This document shows, piece by piece, positions 27,695 through 60,193 of a stretch of DNA of 64,000 nucleotides. Each line of letters begins with the position of its first letter. Positions within the stretch are counted from its first letter, which is position 1. Source of the stretch: an uncultured Methanosarcinaceae archaeon. GTDB lineage: Archaea > Halobacteriota > Methanosarcinia > Methanosarcinales > Methanosarcinaceae. The notes under the pieces were generated by a model. The model ran no database searches, was not told the DNA's origin, and saw only the letters and a list, made by a program, of their open reading frames with translations. The stretch lies in assembly GCA_963721455.1 (NCBI GenBank), contig CAVRJG010000019.1, forward strand, positions 32,001 to 96,000, given 5' to 3'. A program made the position numbers and the translations under genes.

Positions 27695-28312
27695 CGAAAC
27701 AGAGACTTATGATGATGAGTTGTTTTAATTTTTATGGATTTCTTCAATTTTGAAAAAAATCATGAGAGTTCCATTTGAGAATAATCAGACAGAAAGAGAT
27801 ATCATATGATGAAACTACAACAGAAAACATCGGGAACTTTCAGAACAATTCAAGGAGCGGAAGCTTTCTGCAGAATTAGAGCATACATTTAACAATTAGA
27901 AAGAATAGTTTGCCTGTTATAGAGGGTATTCGAGCAACGTTCAAAGGAGCGCCGCTAACTATGCACTGAATGATAGTTTCTTTATCTTATCCCCAACTAC
28001 CGGGTTTTCAGGGATAAGTTCTCAGTTGTTAGTTGAGGCATTTCCAGGAATGGGGTCAGAAATAAAAGTACAGGAAGCCAGAGCAGCAGTTTCAGCTTTT
28101 TTCTATTTCTCCGGTTCTGGATGAAAGTGAAAGCGACTTTCAAGAAAATAAGCTCCTCAGAAAGCAAAATCCTGAATCTCCTTTTTCGATATTTTTGTCT
28201 GTTTCTCATCAGGTGTTGTTTCTCATGAGGCTTACGCTTTTCCCGGAGATTTGAATTCACCTATTATCTCTTTCATCTGTTTATCCGATTTCAGTATATA
28301 CAGATAATAGAT

Positions 28313-28589
28313 CCTACTTTCGGCAGGTCGACGTTTAATTTTTGATAATTTTACTGATGGCGATTTTGAAATAATGCTCCTTACTTGTGTGTAATTGATA
28401 GGTTTACATATGACCAATTATTAATTTCTCATACTAAACTTTAATGAAAAAATGATTTAGTATTTATATATGCTGTGGGAGTTGAGCCACCTGTTAACCA
28501 GCTTTAAACCTAATCTATAGTTAGTGAATGTTCAAAAACGGCATCAAGAAAAATATTCTAATTTTTAATGTCGACCTGCCGAAAGTAGG
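28313..28589. mobile_element. 277-bp MITE with a 15-bp target-site duplication
   Basis: IRs CCTACTTTCGGCAGGTCGAC/GTCGACCTGCCGAAAGTAGG; ATACAGATAATAGAT at 28298-28312 and 28590-28604. Confidence 0.88.
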
Positions 28590-28834
28590 ATACAGATAAT
28601 AGATGCAGATACCTACATTCGGCAGGTCGACATTAGATTTTGAGAATTTTTACTGATTGCGTTTTTCAAACATTATGTAAATATGTAGTGGGTTTGAAAC
28701 TGGTTAACATTTGACCCAAATCTCACTACATATATAAACAATGAACCATTTTTGCAATAATGTTCAGTATAAAGGATAATGTGTTTTCCAGCAAAAACGC
28801 TATCAATAAAAATATTACGAAAAAAACAAGTTAC

Positions 28835-30977
28835 GTCAAATAAGAAAGAGCGATTACTCGCTCTCCCTCTTCTAAGAACCGGACGTGCGCCTTTCGACGC
28901 ATCCGGCTCAAGCATTCTATAACCTTTTCTGTATCAGGCAGCAGTCTTTTTTTTTTCAAATAATTAATCAAATGGATTGACTTTTCCGGAAACTTAATTT
29001 ATTTGAACGTTCGTGAAAATAATCCGGATCAAGAAATGGATTCATTTGCAGCTTTAAAGGAATGTGTCTGTAGATTCTGGTTTTTGAAAGAAGCAGTAAC
29101 CCATTTCTCTCGGTTCTGAAATTCCATCTTCTTGAGGTGCTTCTTTTCCAATATTTGTTGACAATCCAATCTTTGGATTTGTTCGGATGTCTTCTTTTAG
29201 CCCATATCCATAGCAGCTCCCAGATTCTATGATCAAGGATCTGGAATACGTCCGAGGAGACCACTGAATTGTGATAATTGGTCCAACCTCTTATTATGGG
29301 GTTTAATTTGGTAATTAAGACTTCCTGAGACCATGCCATTCCTTTCGTTATGGTTTGACTGATTGTTTCAGTAAACCTTTTAATGGACTTCTTGGAAGGC
29401 TTGATCAGAAGCTTACCATTGTACTTGCGGAAATTCCAGCCGAGAAAATCAAAGCCCTCATTAATATTTGTGATCAGGGTTTTGTCATCAGATAGTTCAA
29501 GACCTCGTTCTTTGAGAAAAGCAGTAATTATGTCCCTAATTTCTCTGGCAGATTCTTCTGAATTAGCAGTGACTATGAAATCATCAGCATAACGGATGAA
29601 GTTAACCTTGGGAGACTTACTACCTCTTTTTGGGTATTTAGCCATAAGTAACTTCTCGATGCCGTCCAATGTCATATTTGCCAAAATGGGGGAGATTATC
29701 CCACCTTGTGGCGTACCTGCTTTTGTTGGATTCAGATGATGTTTGTAAATGAAACCTGCTTTAAGAAATTGAGTCAGTACTGATTTTTCTATAGGAATGT
29801 TAGTCAACAACCACTGATGATTTATATTATCGAAACATCCTTTGATATCGCCTTCTAAGATCCATTGGGCCGAGTTCTTCTTGCTTAAACACAAAAAGAT
29901 TTGCTGACATGCATCTTTGGTACTTCGGTGCTTTCGAAATCCAAAAGACCTCAGGTCAGACATTGTTTCAGCTATGGGTTCGAGAGCTAATGCATATAAA
30001 GATTGAATAGCTCTGTCATACATTGTAGGGATACCTAAGGGACGTTTCTTCTTCTTACCAGGCTTATTAATGAAGACTCGTTTCAGGGGTTTAGCTTTGT
30101 ATCTTTTACCAGTAGGACTAAGGACAGCTTTCATTTTGGAGCTTGAAGTTAGCCATTTTTCACCATCAATTCCAGATGTCCTTTTTCCTTTGTTTTGAGT
30201 AACTCTTCTTACTGCCAAGAGTTTGGCGAAATAGGAATGAGTTAGGAGATACTGCAATCTCTTGACATGGTTCCATTTGTTTTGCATTACTGCTTTTGTA
30301 ATTCGGGTTTGCAACTTATTAACACTCTTCTCTACTTGATTCCAGTCAATAGTTTTCCATCTCTGGAAGAGGGAAGCGTCTGTAAGCTTCTTATCCTGAG
30401 AGGATATCGTTGAAATACTTACATTCAGAAGTTTGCCTCCTTTCATACAATAGAACACCAAATAAGCAAGTCTGCACCCTTTCAGGCTAGGGCAAAGTTT
30501 GAACCCCTATCCATTCCATTACAGAATGACATTCGCTTTTTGCTTGAATCCTCTACCCTCTATGCAATTAATTCCCTTCACAGGGTCTCTACCTTTTTTT
30601 TTTAAAGGAGCATATAGGGTTTACCAAGTTCCATACCATGAATAATATGAATACCTTAGAAGCCATCTGTAAACCGAGAACCATTTGTCCATTTGCCATA
30701 ATGTCGGCAGATCCATTATGACCTGATTCTATACCTTTTGGTTTGAGCGTGTCAACCTGTTTTCGCTCATTCTGCTTCACGATTTTTACGATGGTTCACT
30801 TTACGTTCTTCATAGTATTCTTATCCTAACCAATTATCAAAGTCAGGCTCCTTGATTTCTTGATATTGTCTTGTGAGCTTCACACACAAACGTTGCCATT
30901 TATGCATGTCACAGTAGGATTACCTCAAATGGAAGAGGTAGCGTTTCCGCAATTCATAGCATAGCTTCTTGTCGCAC
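28835..30977 (-). mobile_element. Complete group II intron, about 2143 nt
   Basis: 5' GTGCG at 30977; domain V GAGCCGGATGCGTCGAAAGGCGCACGTCCGGTTC at 28876-28909; domain VI ending TTTGAC; RT ORF; EBS1 hairpin. Confidence 0.93.
28968..30446 (-). CDS. ltrA: Group II intron reverse transcriptase/maturase, no HNH domain (start uncertain)
   Basis: RPLGIPT, EGDIKGCFDNI, GTPQGGIISP, RYADD, FDFLG, NPIIRGWTNY. Confidence 0.95.
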   Translation of the reverse strand: MKGGKLLNVSISTISSQDKKLTDASLFQRWKTIDWNQVEKSVNKLQTRITKAVMQNKWNHVKRLQYLLTHSYFAKLLAVRRVTQNKGKRTSGIDGEKWLTSSSKMKAVLSPTGKRYKAKPLKRVFINKPGKKKKRPLGIPTMYDRAIQSLYALALEPIAETMSDLRSFGFRKHRSTKDACQQIFLCLSKKNSAQWILEGDIKGCFDNINHQWLLTNIPIEKSVLTQFLKAGFIYKHHLNPTKAGTPQGGIISPILANMTLDGIEKLLMAKYPKRGSKSPKVNFIRYADDFIVTANSEESAREIRDIITAFLKERGLELSDDKTLITNINEGFDFLGWNFRKYNGKLLIKPSKKSIKRFTETISQTITKGMAWSQEVLITKLNPIIRGWTNYHNSVVSSDVFQILDHRIWELLWIWAKRRHPNKSKDWIVNKYWKRSTSRRWNFRTERNGLLLLSKTRIYRHIPLKLQMNPFLDPDYFHERSNKLSFRKSQSI

Positions 30978-31136
30978 CTGCCGAAAGCAGGTTATAAGTG
31001 TTCCACTAACGTTTAGAAAGTGACTATAAATTACCCACTTAAAATAGCAAGGAGCCCTTTTCCATACGCCACTCTCGGCTTGAGCCCGCCTGTTTACCGG
31101 ATAAAAACGAAATCATCAGCCGCACTGGAAATTAAA

Positions 31137-32603
31137 TCATTCTCTGATTCTCTTTTTCACGCCAACTAGAAAGCTCGAAACTATTTTTCTAAACATGGGG
31201 TCTTCATGAAAGGTTATTCCGTAATAGATCGGCGTTATGATCGCTACCACCAAGAGCATGATGTAAAAGTTTGAGGTGAATATTTCCAGCAGAATTAACG
31301 GAGCTGCAACAACCAGGCCGATTGCCATATACCTTACAAGGATTCCAAAGCTTTCTTTCTTGTCAATCCCTATGAGGTTCAGCAAATATGCATTGTTCCA
31401 GAGCCAGAATACAACCCCGGTAAGGCTAAAAAAGCCCAGAGCGAACTCCGGCCCCCCGTAAGTCCCTCCTATGAACAGTGCTACTACCCTTGAGATTAAG
31501 AGAATTATACTGAAGGTAAGCCAGACCGACTGTTTGTCGTATATGCTGTAGAGGGTTGAAATAGGTGAGGACAGGAAGACTAGGAATATCCAGGGCAAAA
31601 GGATCCTCACATATATGCCGGAGACAGACCAGCTTTCACCGAAGGCAAATGTGAACACCGGTTCTCCTATGATCATCAGGAGTATCATCGGGAATATCCC
31701 GATTGATATCAGTTTTTTGTAAACCTCTTCCACAACAGCCTTCACGTCCCCATCCACATTTCCGTTTTTGACCTCACTGACCTTCTGGAAGAAGACCTGT
31801 CCAATGGCGTTGCCTACAATCACCATGGGCATGTTAACCACCTGATATGCAAGTGAATAGTGCCCTACGACTGTTGGACCGTAAAAAAGTGCAAGCAAAA
31901 AGGTAGGTACCTGTGGGGAAATCGTATTTGCAATTGTGGACCAAGAACTGAATAATGGGAAGTTTTTATGCTGAATAGCTACCTCTTTCATTCTTTTTAT
32001 TGACACCTTTTTGAAAACCGGGATATCTTTTTTTATGCCCTTGAGCATGAAAAGGTCTGCAAATACATATCCTGCAATGAGCCCGACAAACAGGCTCACG
32101 GGAGATACAATCCATTTTGCCAGCCCTATCTGAAACACCTTTCCTAATAAGGTATTTGAAACTCTGGCTCCGGCTATGACTCCAAAACGGATCCGTCTTG
32201 AAAGCCAGTAGTTCTGCACGAAAAACAGGCCATTAAGGAAGACTATTATCGGAAGATAAATTAAATATCTTGAAGCTCCCGGCGCATTCAGGATAGAATC
32301 AATATTTTCAGGAAGGAATAATATCCCGATGCCTGTAAGTAAAGATGTAAGAGTCACAAGTATGACACAGAGAACTACAATATTTACCGAATCTTCATCT
32401 TCTTTTGGAAGTATAATTGAGAACTGGTATGAAAAAGTAGAAACTATTGCAAGAATGCCTGATATTGAGAGAATCAGTTGAAAAATCCCAAAATCATTTG
32501 GGCTATAAATCCTGGTGATTATGGGGATGAGGAGCACACCCAGGGCCTGTGCAATCACGCTTCCTGATACCATTTTTAGTACATTGGTGACAAAGTTAGA
32601 CAT
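31137..32603 (-). CDS. Wzx-type polysaccharide flippase
   Basis: PIITRIYSPNDFG and a multi-TM pattern. Confidence 0.88.
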   Translation of the reverse strand: MSNFVTNVLKMVSGSVIAQALGVLLIPIITRIYSPNDFGIFQLILSISGILAIVSTFSYQFSIILPKEDEDSVNIVVLCVILVTLTSLLTGIGILFLPENIDSILNAPGASRYLIYLPIIVFLNGLFFVQNYWLSRRIRFGVIAGARVSNTLLGKVFQIGLAKWIVSPVSLFVGLIAGYVFADLFMLKGIKKDIPVFKKVSIKRMKEVAIQHKNFPLFSSWSTIANTISPQVPTFLLALFYGPTVVGHYSLAYQVVNMPMVIVGNAIGQVFFQKVSEVKNGNVDGDVKAVVEEVYKKLISIGIFPMILLMIIGEPVFTFAFGESWSVSGIYVRILLPWIFLVFLSSPISTLYSIYDKQSVWLTFSIILLISRVVALFIGGTYGGPEFALGFFSLTGVVFWLWNNAYLLNLIGIDKKESFGILVRYMAIGLVVAAPLILLEIFTSNFYIMLLVVAIITPIYYGITFHEDPMFRKIVSSFLVGVKKRIRE

Positions 32604-55423: not shown

Positions 55424-55552
55424 TGAGCATGGCAGCGATCCAGAGTTCCCGAAGACTCGCGTACTTCAGTACAGTAAGGAACGTGGACAGGCTTATCTTC
55501 TGTGTTCGGGATGGGTACAGGAGTTGCCCTGCCGCTATGGCCGCCAGACTCT
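55424..55552 (-). rRNA. rrf: 5S rRNA
   Basis: GGCGGCCATAGCGG...CCCATCCCGAACAC...GATCGCTGCC. Confidence 0.96.
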
Positions 55553-55577
55553 ACCTATAAATGGGATTGGGGAAAAT

Positions 55578-55627
55578 GATGAAGTCATGTATAGGTGTGC
55601 TGCATATTGAATTTCGCCTGGACCTGA
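55578..55627 (-). other. 3' arm of the pre-23S processing stem (pairs with ~58541-58589)
   Basis: ATGAAGTCATGTATAGGTG...CTGGACCTG is the inverted repeat of 58541-58589. Confidence 0.8.
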
Positions 55628-55635
55628 TATGGTGA

Positions 55636-58527
<2,892 letters not shown>

Positions 58528-58715
58528 TCCTGTTACACCTAACCAGGTCCAGTTAGCGTTCAATATACAGCACCTATACATGACTTCATGTACCTGAGTT
58601 TCCACACAGGCAATCCGTCCTTCCCCGAAAATTTACTTTCCGGGTGCATTAGAGAATGAAATGGTTTGAGGATTTGTCGGTTTATCGGCATCTGGGCGGT
58701 GGGTTTTTTATGCTT

Positions 58716-60193
<1,478 letters not shown>

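What the first reader, a model, noticed from the sequence alone, without database searches (positions are those of the whole stretch)
28835..30991. Group II intron that targets the terminal inverted repeat of a MITE
Seen: the 5' exon (minus strand) ends CCTGCTTTCGGCAG|GTGCG, which is the MITE IR. The intron loop CTGCCGA (30704-30710), closed by stem CATAATG/CATTATG, is complementary to exon positions -7..-1 (EBS1/IBS1). AAGCAG (30772-30777) is complementary to CTGCTT at -13..-8 (candidate EBS2/IBS2). Three neighbouring unoccupied IRs carry CCTAC, a mismatch in IBS2. The RT lacks an HNH domain, and domain V has an AGC triad, so this is not IIC. Established: introns homing into IS ORFs or other introns are known. 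Inference: a retroelement specialised on a multicopy transposon end, gaining safe sites while immobilising the host MITE.
Basis: partly seen in the sequence, partly recalled or inferred. Interest (0 to 1): 0.72.

Follow-up and report, generated by a model that had tools for sequence, protein, structure and literature searches.

The report
Archaeal intron homing into transposon ends
A self-splicing, mobile group II intron in this methanogen sits 14 bases inside the terminal repeat of a miniature transposon, and its whole lineage is aimed by base pairing at that transposon end, a habit already known from one bacterial intron.

Summary
Window 30977..28835 (minus strand) is an intact 2143-nt group II intron. 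It has Rfam D1 and DV/DVI hits and an RT/maturase ORF with no HNH domain. It lies exactly 14 nt inside the terminal inverted repeat (TIR) of a 237-bp MITE.

The MITE belongs to a family of 28 copies, mostly with 6-bp target duplications. They share their TIR with a 1.7-kb IS1634-family insertion sequence in the same genome. Empty paralogous MITEs fix both intron boundaries.

I add EBS3 (window 30669), which pairs with exon +1.

The genome holds 3 near-identical RT-encoding copies and 12 ORF-less derivatives. All sit after the same TIR position. In other genomes of the family, 26 of 33 introns with at least 80% D1 identity sit after the same motif, against 1 of 28 more distant ones.

So the lineage is specialised on this transposon end. 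That it immobilises the MITE is untested.

The concept has a published bacterial precedent: RmInt2 in the inverted repeats of ISRm17. This is therefore a new archaeal, MITE-borne member of a known kind. No splicing evidence was obtained.

The parts
28835..30977 (-). Group II intron, 2143 nt (GTGCG...TTTGAC)
   Evidence: Rfam RF02012 and RF00029. Both boundaries are fixed by empty paralogous MITE sites reading CCTGCTTTCGGCAG|GTAACTTG. The two other copies in the genome are 99.7-99.9% identical.
30978..30991 (-). 5' exon, which is the outer 14 nt of the MITE left TIR. IBS1 is 30984..30978 (TCGGCAG) and IBS2 is 30990..30985 (CTGCTT).
   Evidence: Sequence upstream of these 14 nt is unique at every copy.
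30704..30710 (-). EBS1 (CTGCCGA, intron nt 268-274), the terminal loop of the CATAATGG/CATTATG hairpin
   Evidence: 7 of 7 Watson-Crick pairs with exon -7..-1 in 33 of 47 introns compared, through 6 different EBS1/IBS1 sequence pairs. Predicted as a terminal loop in the consensus fold.
30772..30777 (-). EBS2 (AAGCAG, intron nt 201-206)
   Evidence: Covaries with exon -13..-8 through 5 different perfect pairs: AAGCAG/CTGCTT, AAGTGG/CCACTT, AAGTCA/TGACTT, AAAACC/GGTTTT and AAGTTT/AAACTT. Unpaired in the consensus fold.
30669..30669 (-). EBS3 (C, intron nt 309), which pairs with the first 3'-exon base, G at 28834
   Evidence: This is the alignment column most complementary to exon +1: 29 of 31 introns, with C opposite G in 6 of 6. 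It lies in the internal loop next to the D1d stem.
28968..30461 (-). Intron-encoded reverse transcriptase/maturase. The probable ATG start is at 30446. There is no endonuclease domain.
   Evidence: Pfam RVT_N, RVT_1 and GIIM. NCBIfam TIGR04416, E 1e-105. The nearest solved chain, 6ME0_C, aligns over its residues 22-479 of 562. The frame is open in all 3 copies.
28835..28911 (-). Domains V and VI. DV starts G-AGC. DVI has a bulged A, and the intron ends GAC.
   Evidence: RF00029, 56.8 bits. The triad and the bulge are read directly from the sequence.
28612..28834 (-). 3' exon, the remaining 223 bp of the MITE. The right TIR is at 28612-28631.
   Evidence: 86-90% identical over 216-236 bp to 10 intron-free copies elsewhere in the genome (3 further related copies: 95.6% over 159 bp, 78% and 76%). 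The inverted 14-mer CTGCCGAATGTAGG lies 209 nt downstream of the intron.
28313..28589 (.). Neighbouring unoccupied 277-bp MITE of the same TIR family, with CCTAC at both ends

Best explanation
This is a mobile group II intron with IIB architecture. Its reverse transcriptase resembles the chloroplast-like/IIB1 type and lacks an endonuclease domain.

The intron retrohomes by RNA-DNA base pairing into one fixed position, 14 nt in from the outer tip of the terminal inverted repeat. That repeat is shared by an IS1634-family insertion sequence and its MITE derivatives. EBS2 (6 nt), EBS1 (7 nt) and EBS3 (1 nt) read TIR positions 2-15.

Because the target is the transposon end, every new transposition creates fresh homing sites in dispensable DNA. 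The intron always points into the element.

The RT-encoding intron (3 copies) is the likely protein source for a 749-nt ORF-less derivative (10 copies, 8 of them identical). That derivative's EBS1, EBS2 and EBS3 have changed to match a sister TIR variant, CCCACTTTCCGCAG|A.

Shown here: the anatomy, the boundaries, the guide-sequence covariation, the multicopy near-identity with empty sites, and the same target across the family.

Inferred: priming from replication-fork DNA, as in other endonuclease-less introns; mobilisation of the ORF-less copies in trans; and loss of MITE mobility after insertion.
For: Intron identity.

Boundaries and mobility:
- The three copies are 99.7-99.9% identical but sit in two different MITE subfamilies, with 3' exons GTAACTTG... 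and GTCGACATAAAA....
- Empty paralogues have the exact junction.
- One intron-bearing MITE keeps its 6-bp TSD, TTTTAT.

Target is a TIR:
- The genome has 33 paired-TIR elements. 28 are MITEs, 3 are IS-sized and 2 are MITE::intron. 24 have a 6-bp TSD.
- A 1719-bp element with the same TIR encodes an IS1634-family transposase (NF033559, E 1.5e-116).

Guide sequences: EBS1, EBS2 and EBS3 covary with the exons and lie in IIB positions.

Selectivity:
- 3 of 14 perfect sites (CCTGCTTTCGGCAGG) are occupied, against 0 of 35 with the A variant. The hypergeometric probability is 0.02.
- ORF-less introns occupy 6 of 8 CCACTTTCCGCAG sites.
- 8 ORF-less copies are 100% identical yet have 8 different 3' exons.

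Conservation:
- 26 of 33 introns with at least 80% D1 identity in other genomes follow the TIR motif, against 1 of 28 below 80%.
- In four other genomes the intron sits in a MITE of 142-251 bp with an intact 6-bp TSD.
- The clade occurs in three genera of the family.

RT supply: the genome has only 4 intact group II RT genes, and 3 of them are this one.
Against: - No RNA evidence of splicing and no direct evidence of mobility. The only public runs holding the stretch are metagenome contigs.
- The window copy's MITE has no TSD.
- 11 perfect target sites remain empty, so homing is inefficient, recent or restricted.
- The two C15 copies share a 3' exon that is 98.3% identical over 176 bp, while other copies of that MITE are about 88% identical. 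They may therefore not be independent homing events. If so, the 3-of-14 against 0-of-35 contrast is weaker.
- 7 of 33 close relatives miss the motif at 3 mismatches or fewer. Two have the motif displaced by one base, one has 4 mismatches, one is an internal duplication, and three have unrelated exons, two of which are short fragments.
- The RT class was not placed by phylogeny.
Confidence: 0.85

Rival explanations
1. Passive hitch-hiking. The intron entered a MITE once, and its copies spread because the intron-bearing MITE was transposed or duplicated as DNA, not by retrohoming.
For: - The two C15 copies share a 3' exon 98.3% identical over 176 bp, against about 88% to other copies of that MITE.
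- The intron starts GT, so TIR positions 15-16 are recreated at the junction.
Against: - Near-identical introns sit in MITE subfamilies with unrelated interiors.
- 8 identical ORF-less copies have 8 different 3' exons.
- The guide sequences match each lineage's own TIR variant.
- Empty sites are common.
Confidence: 0.07
2. No specialisation. The intron retrotransposes loosely, and TIRs are merely the most abundant near-matches in the genome.
For: - Some occupied sites have one or two EBS2 mismatches. Examples are CGACCT and CTGCAT.
- RmInt2 is reported to tolerate only 4 EBS2 pairs (PMC4615759).
Against: - All 15 own-genome copies of the clade sit at the TIR position, as do 26 of 33 close relatives elsewhere.
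- EBS1 pairing is 7 of 7 in every own-genome TIR copy.
- The octamers TTCGGCAG and TTCCGCAG occur about 255 times each in the genome, but introns follow them only at TIR tips.
Confidence: 0.05
3. Structure-directed targeting, as in IIC introns. The TIR tip CCTGC-TTTCG-GCAGG can form a small hairpin, and the intron recognises that hairpin in single-stranded DNA.
For: The G variant of the tip is a perfect 5-bp palindrome and the A variant is not. Only the G variant is occupied by this intron.
Against: - An EBS2 is present and covaries, and DV carries AGC.
- The sister TIR CCCACTTTCCGCAG|A is not palindromic, yet 6 of 8 of its sites are occupied.
- The insertion point is inside the would-be stem, not after it.
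Confidence: 0.03

Closest known systems
RmInt2 in the inverted repeats of ISRm17, Sinorhizobium meliloti (PMC4615759; passages read)
   Same: - All copies lie within the inverted repeats of an insertion sequence, which gives two oppositely oriented sites per element.
- The authors describe IS inverted repeats as the DNA target.
- The IBS region spans -14 to +1, as it does here.
- The encoded protein lacks the DNA-binding/endonuclease domains, which that paper states for RmInt1.
   Different: - It is bacterial and related to RmInt1; that it belongs to class D is recalled, not tested here.
- The passages read mention no MITE hosts, no ORF-less derivative family and no spread across genera.
- The intron here is archaeal. 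Its RT is closest to a solved chloroplast-like/IIB1-type RT, and the host transposon is of the IS1634 family.
Thermosynechococcus elongatus TeI3/TeI4 intron family (PMC2882425; abstract and passages read)
   Same: - ORF-less derivatives of an RT-encoding intron proliferate, presumably mobilised in trans.
- Guide sequences have diverged into families with new targets.
- Insertion into other mobile elements is preferred.
- The nearest solved relative of this RT is 6ME0 chain C. That this chain is the T. elongatus TeI4h protein is my recollection, not a tool result.
   Different: - Its targets are introns, IS elements and intergenic sites, not one conserved TIR position.
- The paper refers to an En domain in those proteins. 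The RT here stops about 80 residues short of it.
Nested group II introns of Methanosarcina acetivorans (Dai and Zimmerly 2003; seen only as summarised in PMC4424553; the paper itself is not held)
   Same: Same genus. [quoted passage not shown]
   Different: The review describes the target as other introns' sequences. Targeting of a transposon TIR is not mentioned in what I could read. One complete congener genome (G001) has a nested intron cluster whose outermost 5' exon is CTGACTTTCCGCAG, a TIR-like motif.
RmInt1 in ISRm2011-2 (named as its abundant DNA target in PMC4615759)
   Same: An endonuclease-less intron with an insertion sequence as its natural homing site.
   Different: The ISRm2011-2 DNA target is presented as distinct from the IS inverted-repeat target of RmInt2. 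Its exact position within the IS is recalled, not read.

Membership tests
Group II intron (ribozyme plus RT retroelement) | Conserved 5' GUGYG, domain V and domain VI, and a matching domain I | tested here: met
   GTGCG at 30977. RF00029 scores 56.8 bits against a gathering score of 40. RF02012 scores 69.8 against 34.
Group II intron (ribozyme plus RT retroelement) | Intron-encoded RT with a maturase (X) domain in domain IV | tested here: met
   RVT_N, RVT_1 and GIIM. TIGR04416, E 1e-105. The YADD motif is read in the sequence.
Group II intron (ribozyme plus RT retroelement) | Splicing, meaning ligated exons in RNA | not testable with these tools
   Only metagenome contigs hold the stretch, and no exon-exon joint was seen.
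Subgroup IIB (not IIA or IIC) | EBS1 and EBS2 both present and pairing with exon -1..-13 | tested here: met
   Covariation through 6 EBS1 pairs and 5 EBS2 pairs.
Subgroup IIB (not IIA or IIC) | EBS3 in an internal loop of D1d, pairing with exon +1 | tested here: met
   Intron nt 309 is complementary to +1 in 29 of 31 introns. It lies in an internal loop in the consensus fold of 25 distinct sequences.
Subgroup IIB (not IIA or IIC) | RT falls in a IIB-associated protein class (chloroplast-like or another) by phylogeny | not tested
   Only the nearest solved chain is known: 6ME0_C, E 9e-152. No tree with class references was built.
Subgroup IIC (terminator or attC targeting) | No EBS2; insertion after a DNA hairpin | tested here: not met
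   EBS2 is present and covaries. The sister TIR is not palindromic yet is occupied.
MITE of an IS1634-family transposon | Short, non-coding, multicopy, with terminal inverted repeats | tested here: met
   237 bp without the intron. The genome holds 28 paired-TIR copies of 230-278 bp. 10 intron-free copies are 86-90% identical over 216-236 bp; 3 more related copies are 95.6% (159 bp), 78% and 76% identical.
MITE of an IS1634-family transposon | Target-site duplication | tested here: inconclusive
   At family level, 24 of 33 elements have a 6-bp TSD. The window copy has none, while the other intron-bearing copy has TTTTAT.
MITE of an IS1634-family transposon | An autonomous element with the same TIR that encodes the transposase | tested here: met
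   G000:C30:7276-8994 is 1719 bp and encodes a 542-aa protein matching NF033559 (IS1634 family) at E 1.5e-116, with DUF4277 and DDE_Tnp_1.
Introns that home into IS inverted repeats (RmInt2-like behaviour) | Copies lie consistently within the inverted repeat of one transposon family | tested here: met
   15 of 15 own-genome copies of the clade. 26 of 33 close relatives in other genomes.
Introns that home into IS inverted repeats (RmInt2-like behaviour) | Experimentally shown retrohoming into the repeat | not testable with these tools
   Needs a donor/recipient assay.

The most novel reading that the evidence does not exclude
The intron lineage and the IS1634-family transposon lineage are locked in a long-running parasite-on-parasite contest across Methanosarcinaceae.

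TIR-tip variants at positions 3-4, position 10 and +1 would be escape alleles. The intron's EBS2, EBS1 and EBS3 follow them by compensatory change. Insertion caps the transposon end and silences that copy, so the intron acts as a natural brake on IS and MITE spread. The near-saturation of one TIR variant by ORF-less copies (6 of 8 sites) would be such a sweep.

A bolder side-reading: the intron's own first bases, GT, recreate TIR positions 15-16. The intron-bearing MITE might then still be cut by the transposase, which would give the intron a second, DNA-level route of spread.
Probability: 0.2. Interest if true: 0.65.

Novelty: new member of a known kind. Interest (0 to 1): 0.45.

Why it matters
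It is a clean natural example of one selfish element living on another. An RNA-guided retroelement has a 14-base address that is the end of a DNA transposon, so its supply of safe landing sites is renewed by the transposon's own activity.

The case extends a behaviour shown for one rhizobial intron to Archaea, to MITEs, and to a different intron class. The matched intron and TIR variants form a natural series of guide/target pairs, which could be used to test targeting rules of endonuclease-less IIB introns.

It also matters for annotation. These 0.75-2.1 kb insertions split MITE and IS ends and would otherwise be read as truncated elements.

Tried and rejected
RNA evidence for splicing. The look-up of sequencing runs returned only metagenome runs. 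The best holder has 0.55 of the sampled words, and the RNA runs have 0.10 or less. Read laying on X1, X2, X3 and X15 gave contigs only and no exon-exon joint across the intron. The small joints listed there lie inside the intron and come from diverged relatives. Contigs whose match stops exactly at 28834 and continues into CTGCCGAAAGCAGG or CTGCTGAAAGTAGG are intron-free MITE copies. X1 may be the sample the genome came from, so these are not independent support. Nothing can be said about expression.

Literature. Dai and Zimmerly 2003 and Simon et al. 2008 are not held, so I cannot exclude that they noted the repeat nature of the exons. Figure S1 of PMC4615759, which maps RmInt2 in ISRm17, was not seen. 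No held paper describes an archaeal intron in a MITE or IS TIR. The searches were 2 papers, neither relevant; passages read; listings only.

Extra intron copies at contig ends. Two MITE copies end at contig edges (C1 and C24). I rejected this as evidence for more introns, because the break lies in the shared TIR and no intron sequence is present.

Opposite TIR for the ORF-less hosts. A partner repeat was found within 4 kb for only 2 of the 10 ORF-less hosts (C71 and C52:170705). Their 3' exons nevertheless start repeat families with intron-free paralogues bearing the same tip. I therefore kept them as TIR or solo-TIR sites, but their full elements are undefined.

RT class by phylogeny. Not done, because no class reference sequences were available from the tools.

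Strand bias relative to replication. Not done, because the genome is in contigs and archaea have multiple origins.
Full report
WHAT IS THERE

On the minus strand the window carries a complete group II intron from 30977 (GTGCG...) to 28835 (...TTTGAC), 2143 nt long. Rfam finds a domain I family (RF02012, 69.8 bits, gathering score 34) at 30830-30940. It finds the domain V/VI family (RF00029, 56.8 bits, gathering score 40) at 28835-28911.

Domain IV holds an open frame at 28968-30461, with a probable ATG at 30446. It carries Pfam RVT_N, RVT_1 and GIIM and nothing else, and it matches NCBIfam TIGR04416 at E 1e-105. Its nearest solved relative is 6ME0 chain C (E 9e-152). That chain is matched over residues 22-479 of 562, so the protein here lacks that chain's C-terminal part. 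DV begins G-AGC. DVI has a bulged A seven bases from the 3' end. Both are read directly.

THE TARGET IS A TRANSPOSON END

The 14 nt before the intron, CCTGCTTTCGGCAG, recur in the genome as the outer tip of a terminal inverted repeat.

- A search for that 14-mer with up to 2 mismatches gave 114 hits.
- Pairing inward-facing ends gave 33 elements: 28 of 230-278 bp, 3 of IS size (1719, 1940 and 3045 bp), and 2 that are MITEs carrying this intron.
- 24 of the 33 have an exact 6-bp target duplication. Two have 5 bp, one has 7, one has 15 and five have none.
- The 1719-bp element encodes a 542-aa protein that matches the IS1634-family transposase model at E 1.5e-116, with DUF4277 and DDE_Tnp_1.

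With the intron removed, the window element is 237 bp (30991-30978 plus 28834-28612). Its right repeat is at 28612-28631. It is 86-90% identical over 216-236 bp to 10 intron-free copies, with 3 further related copies at 95.6% over 159 bp, 78% and 76%. Three of these copies read CCTGCTTTCGGCAG|GTAACTTG across the empty site, which fixes both intron boundaries. This copy has no target duplication.

COPIES IN THE GENOME

The genome has 18 domain V hits.

- Three are this intron: the window copy and two on contig C15. They are 99.7-99.9% identical, each with an open RT frame.
- All three follow CCTGCTTTCGGCAG, and the sequence upstream of the 14 nt is unique at each.
- The window copy sits in one MITE subfamily (3' exon GTAACTTG...). 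The C15 copies sit in another (GTCGACATAAAA...). One of those is a 260-bp MITE with an intact TTTTAT duplication.
- Ten further copies are a 749-756-nt ORF-less derivative. It is about 83% identical to nt 1-600 of the RT intron. Eight of the ten are 100% identical to each other. They follow CCCACTTTCCGCAG or close variants.
- Two more ORF-less copies (C25 and C12) start ATTCG and sit in the right end of an IS-like sequence.
- Two unrelated intron lineages (C49 and C35) have other, also repeated, targets.

HOW THE TARGET IS READ

I aligned domain I of the 17 own-genome introns and 30 introns from congeners.

- The loop closed by CATAATGG/CATTATG is fully complementary (7 of 7 Watson-Crick pairs) to exon -7..-1 in 33 of 47 introns. 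This holds through six different sequence pairs: CTGCCGA/TCGGCAG, CTGCGGA/TCCGCAG, TACAGAA/TTCTGTA, TTACAGA/TCTGTAA, CGATATA/TATATCG and TGTAATA/TATTACA.
- The hexamer at intron nt 201-206 matches exon -13..-8 through five different perfect pairs. More distant introns from other genera extend the same pattern, often with a one-base register shift in EBS2.
- I also looked for the column most complementary to the first 3'-exon base. Intron nt 309 (window 30669) fits in 29 of 31 introns. It is C opposite G in 6 of 6, and T opposite A in the ORF-less family.
- A consensus fold of 25 distinct sequences puts EBS1 in a terminal loop. EBS2 is unpaired just 5' of a small hairpin. Nt 309 lies in the internal loop next to the basal D1d stem. 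This is the IIB arrangement.

The intron therefore reads TIR positions 2-15.

SELECTIVITY

The exact 15-mer CCTGCTTTCGGCAGG occurs 14 times in the genome, and 3 of those sites are occupied. The A variant CCTACTTTCGGCAGG occurs 35 times and none is occupied. The chance that all three fall among the 14 is 0.02. This figure is weaker if the two C15 copies are not independent.

The three unoccupied ends beside the intron in the window are all of the A type. The ORF-less intron has EBS2 AAGTGG, EBS1 CTGCGGA and EBS3 T. It occupies 6 of 8 CCACTTTCCGCAG sites.

OTHER GENOMES

A DNA search found relatives in 45 of 59 genomes of the genus, counting the window's own. It found relatives in 65 of 177 genomes of the family, in 10 of 16 genera. 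I fetched 60 loci.

- Of 33 intron 5' ends with at least 80% identity to the first 330 nt, 26 follow a 14-mer within 3 mismatches of CCYRCWTTCSGCAG.
- Of 28 below 80%, 1 does.
- The 7 misses break down as follows. Two have the motif displaced by one base. One has 4 mismatches. One is an internal duplication of the intron start. Three have unrelated exons, and two of those three are short fragments.
- In four other genomes the intron sits in a MITE of 142-251 bp with an intact 6-bp duplication. These are two RT-encoding and two ORF-less introns. In one genome it sits in an IS-type end.
- The clade also occurs in two other genera of the family. One fragment there is 98% identical over 300 nt.
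- Named records with RTs at least 85% identical come from Methanosarcina, Methanosarcinaceae and Methanomethylovorans assemblies. The nearest bacterial RTs are about 59% identical.

MECHANISM

Shown: a structurally complete intron; exact boundaries; guide/target pairing; recent multiplication into different hosts while empty sites remain; and conservation of the target across species.

Inferred from established knowledge of endonuclease-less introns such as RmInt1 (recalled): reverse splicing into the DNA strand that carries the TIR tip, followed by priming from nascent DNA at a replication fork. A TIR offers the same address on both strands, once at each end of the element. The RmInt2 authors argued this guarantees one site on the lagging strand (PMC4615759). 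Here, however, the two ends of most MITE copies differ in IBS2, so often only one end is a good site.

The ORF-less copies have no RT of their own. The genome has only four intact group II RT genes, three of them this one. Mobilisation in trans by this protein is the simplest reading, as shown experimentally for T. elongatus (PMC2882425).

Whether the split TIR still works for the transposase is unknown.

COMPARISON WITH WHAT IS KNOWN

The nearest precedent is RmInt2 of Sinorhizobium meliloti. All its copies lie in the inverted repeats of ISRm17, and its authors explicitly describe IS inverted repeats as the DNA target (PMC4615759, passages).

The T. elongatus family is the precedent for ORF-less derivatives, guide divergence and insertion into mobile DNA.

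In Methanosarcina, published work as summarised in a review describes homing into other introns, with non-coding flanking exons (PMC4424553). The primary paper is not held.

My searches of the held library found no description of an archaeal intron in an IS or MITE TIR.

I therefore file this as a new member of a known kind. It is archaeal, has a different intron class and a different IS family, has MITEs as its main hosts, and shows matched intron and TIR variants across a family of organisms.

VERDICT

Interest is moderate.

Noticed in passing
window 28298-28604: The neighbouring 277-bp MITE is flanked by an exact 15-bp direct repeat, ATACAGATAATAGAT. Elsewhere in the genome, 24 of 33 elements of this TIR family have 6-bp duplications. 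The MITE lies 22 bp from the intron-bearing MITE.
   Followed up: partly
G000:C17:41760-42028: This copy of the MITE subfamily that hosts the C15 introns lacks exactly the outer 14 nt. It begins at the base where the intron would insert, directly after the end of a coding region. No intron remnant was found upstream.
   Followed up: partly
G000:C25:9190-9940 and G000:C12:49124-48373: Two ORF-less intron copies start ATTCG instead of GTGCG, so the 5' splice site is mutated. They share identical flanks and sit in the GTTAAC end of an IS-like sequence that is not followed by a transposase gene. Their EBS2 (AAGTAG) would fit the common CCTACTT tip better than the site they occupy.
   Followed up: partly
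G000:C59:1454-2600: Tandem duplication of about 384 bp. The TIR tip plus intron nt 1-165 is followed by the same flank, the tip again, and a full ORF-less intron.
   Followed up: no
G000:C49:3888-4646 and G000:C35:15037-17147: Two other intron lineages sit in different repeated targets. One is ORF-less, after TCAAAAGTTCTGTA, with the upstream GGCAGTGTA also conserved at empty sites. The other is RT-encoding (57% identical RT), after TTATCAACGGTTAT, inside a repeat that has 7 intron-free paralogues.
   Followed up: partly
L039 (G011:C1:511276-516323): A related intron measures 4248 nt between its ends. Query nt 1-377 and 414-2143 are separated by about 2.1 kb, so it probably contains another inserted element.
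   Followed up: no
L047 (G071:C1:3208500-3209700): A 300-nt intron 5' fragment in a different genus is 98% identical to this intron, has the same EBS1 and EBS2, and follows CTTGCTTTCGGCAG. This suggests recent transfer between genera.
   Followed up: no
window 30976-30991: The G variant of the TIR tip is itself a small palindrome, CCTGC-TTTCG-GCAGG. The intron's first two bases, GT, recreate TIR positions 15-16 at the 5' junction.
   Followed up: no
window 31137-32603 (-): The gene ending about 145 nt upstream of the intron, on the same strand, is a polysaccharide biosynthesis (flippase-type) protein. Read-through from it could supply the intron transcript.
   Followed up: no
window 55427-60193 (-): A complete archaeal rRNA operon (16S, 23S and 5S) lies in the window.
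   Followed up: no
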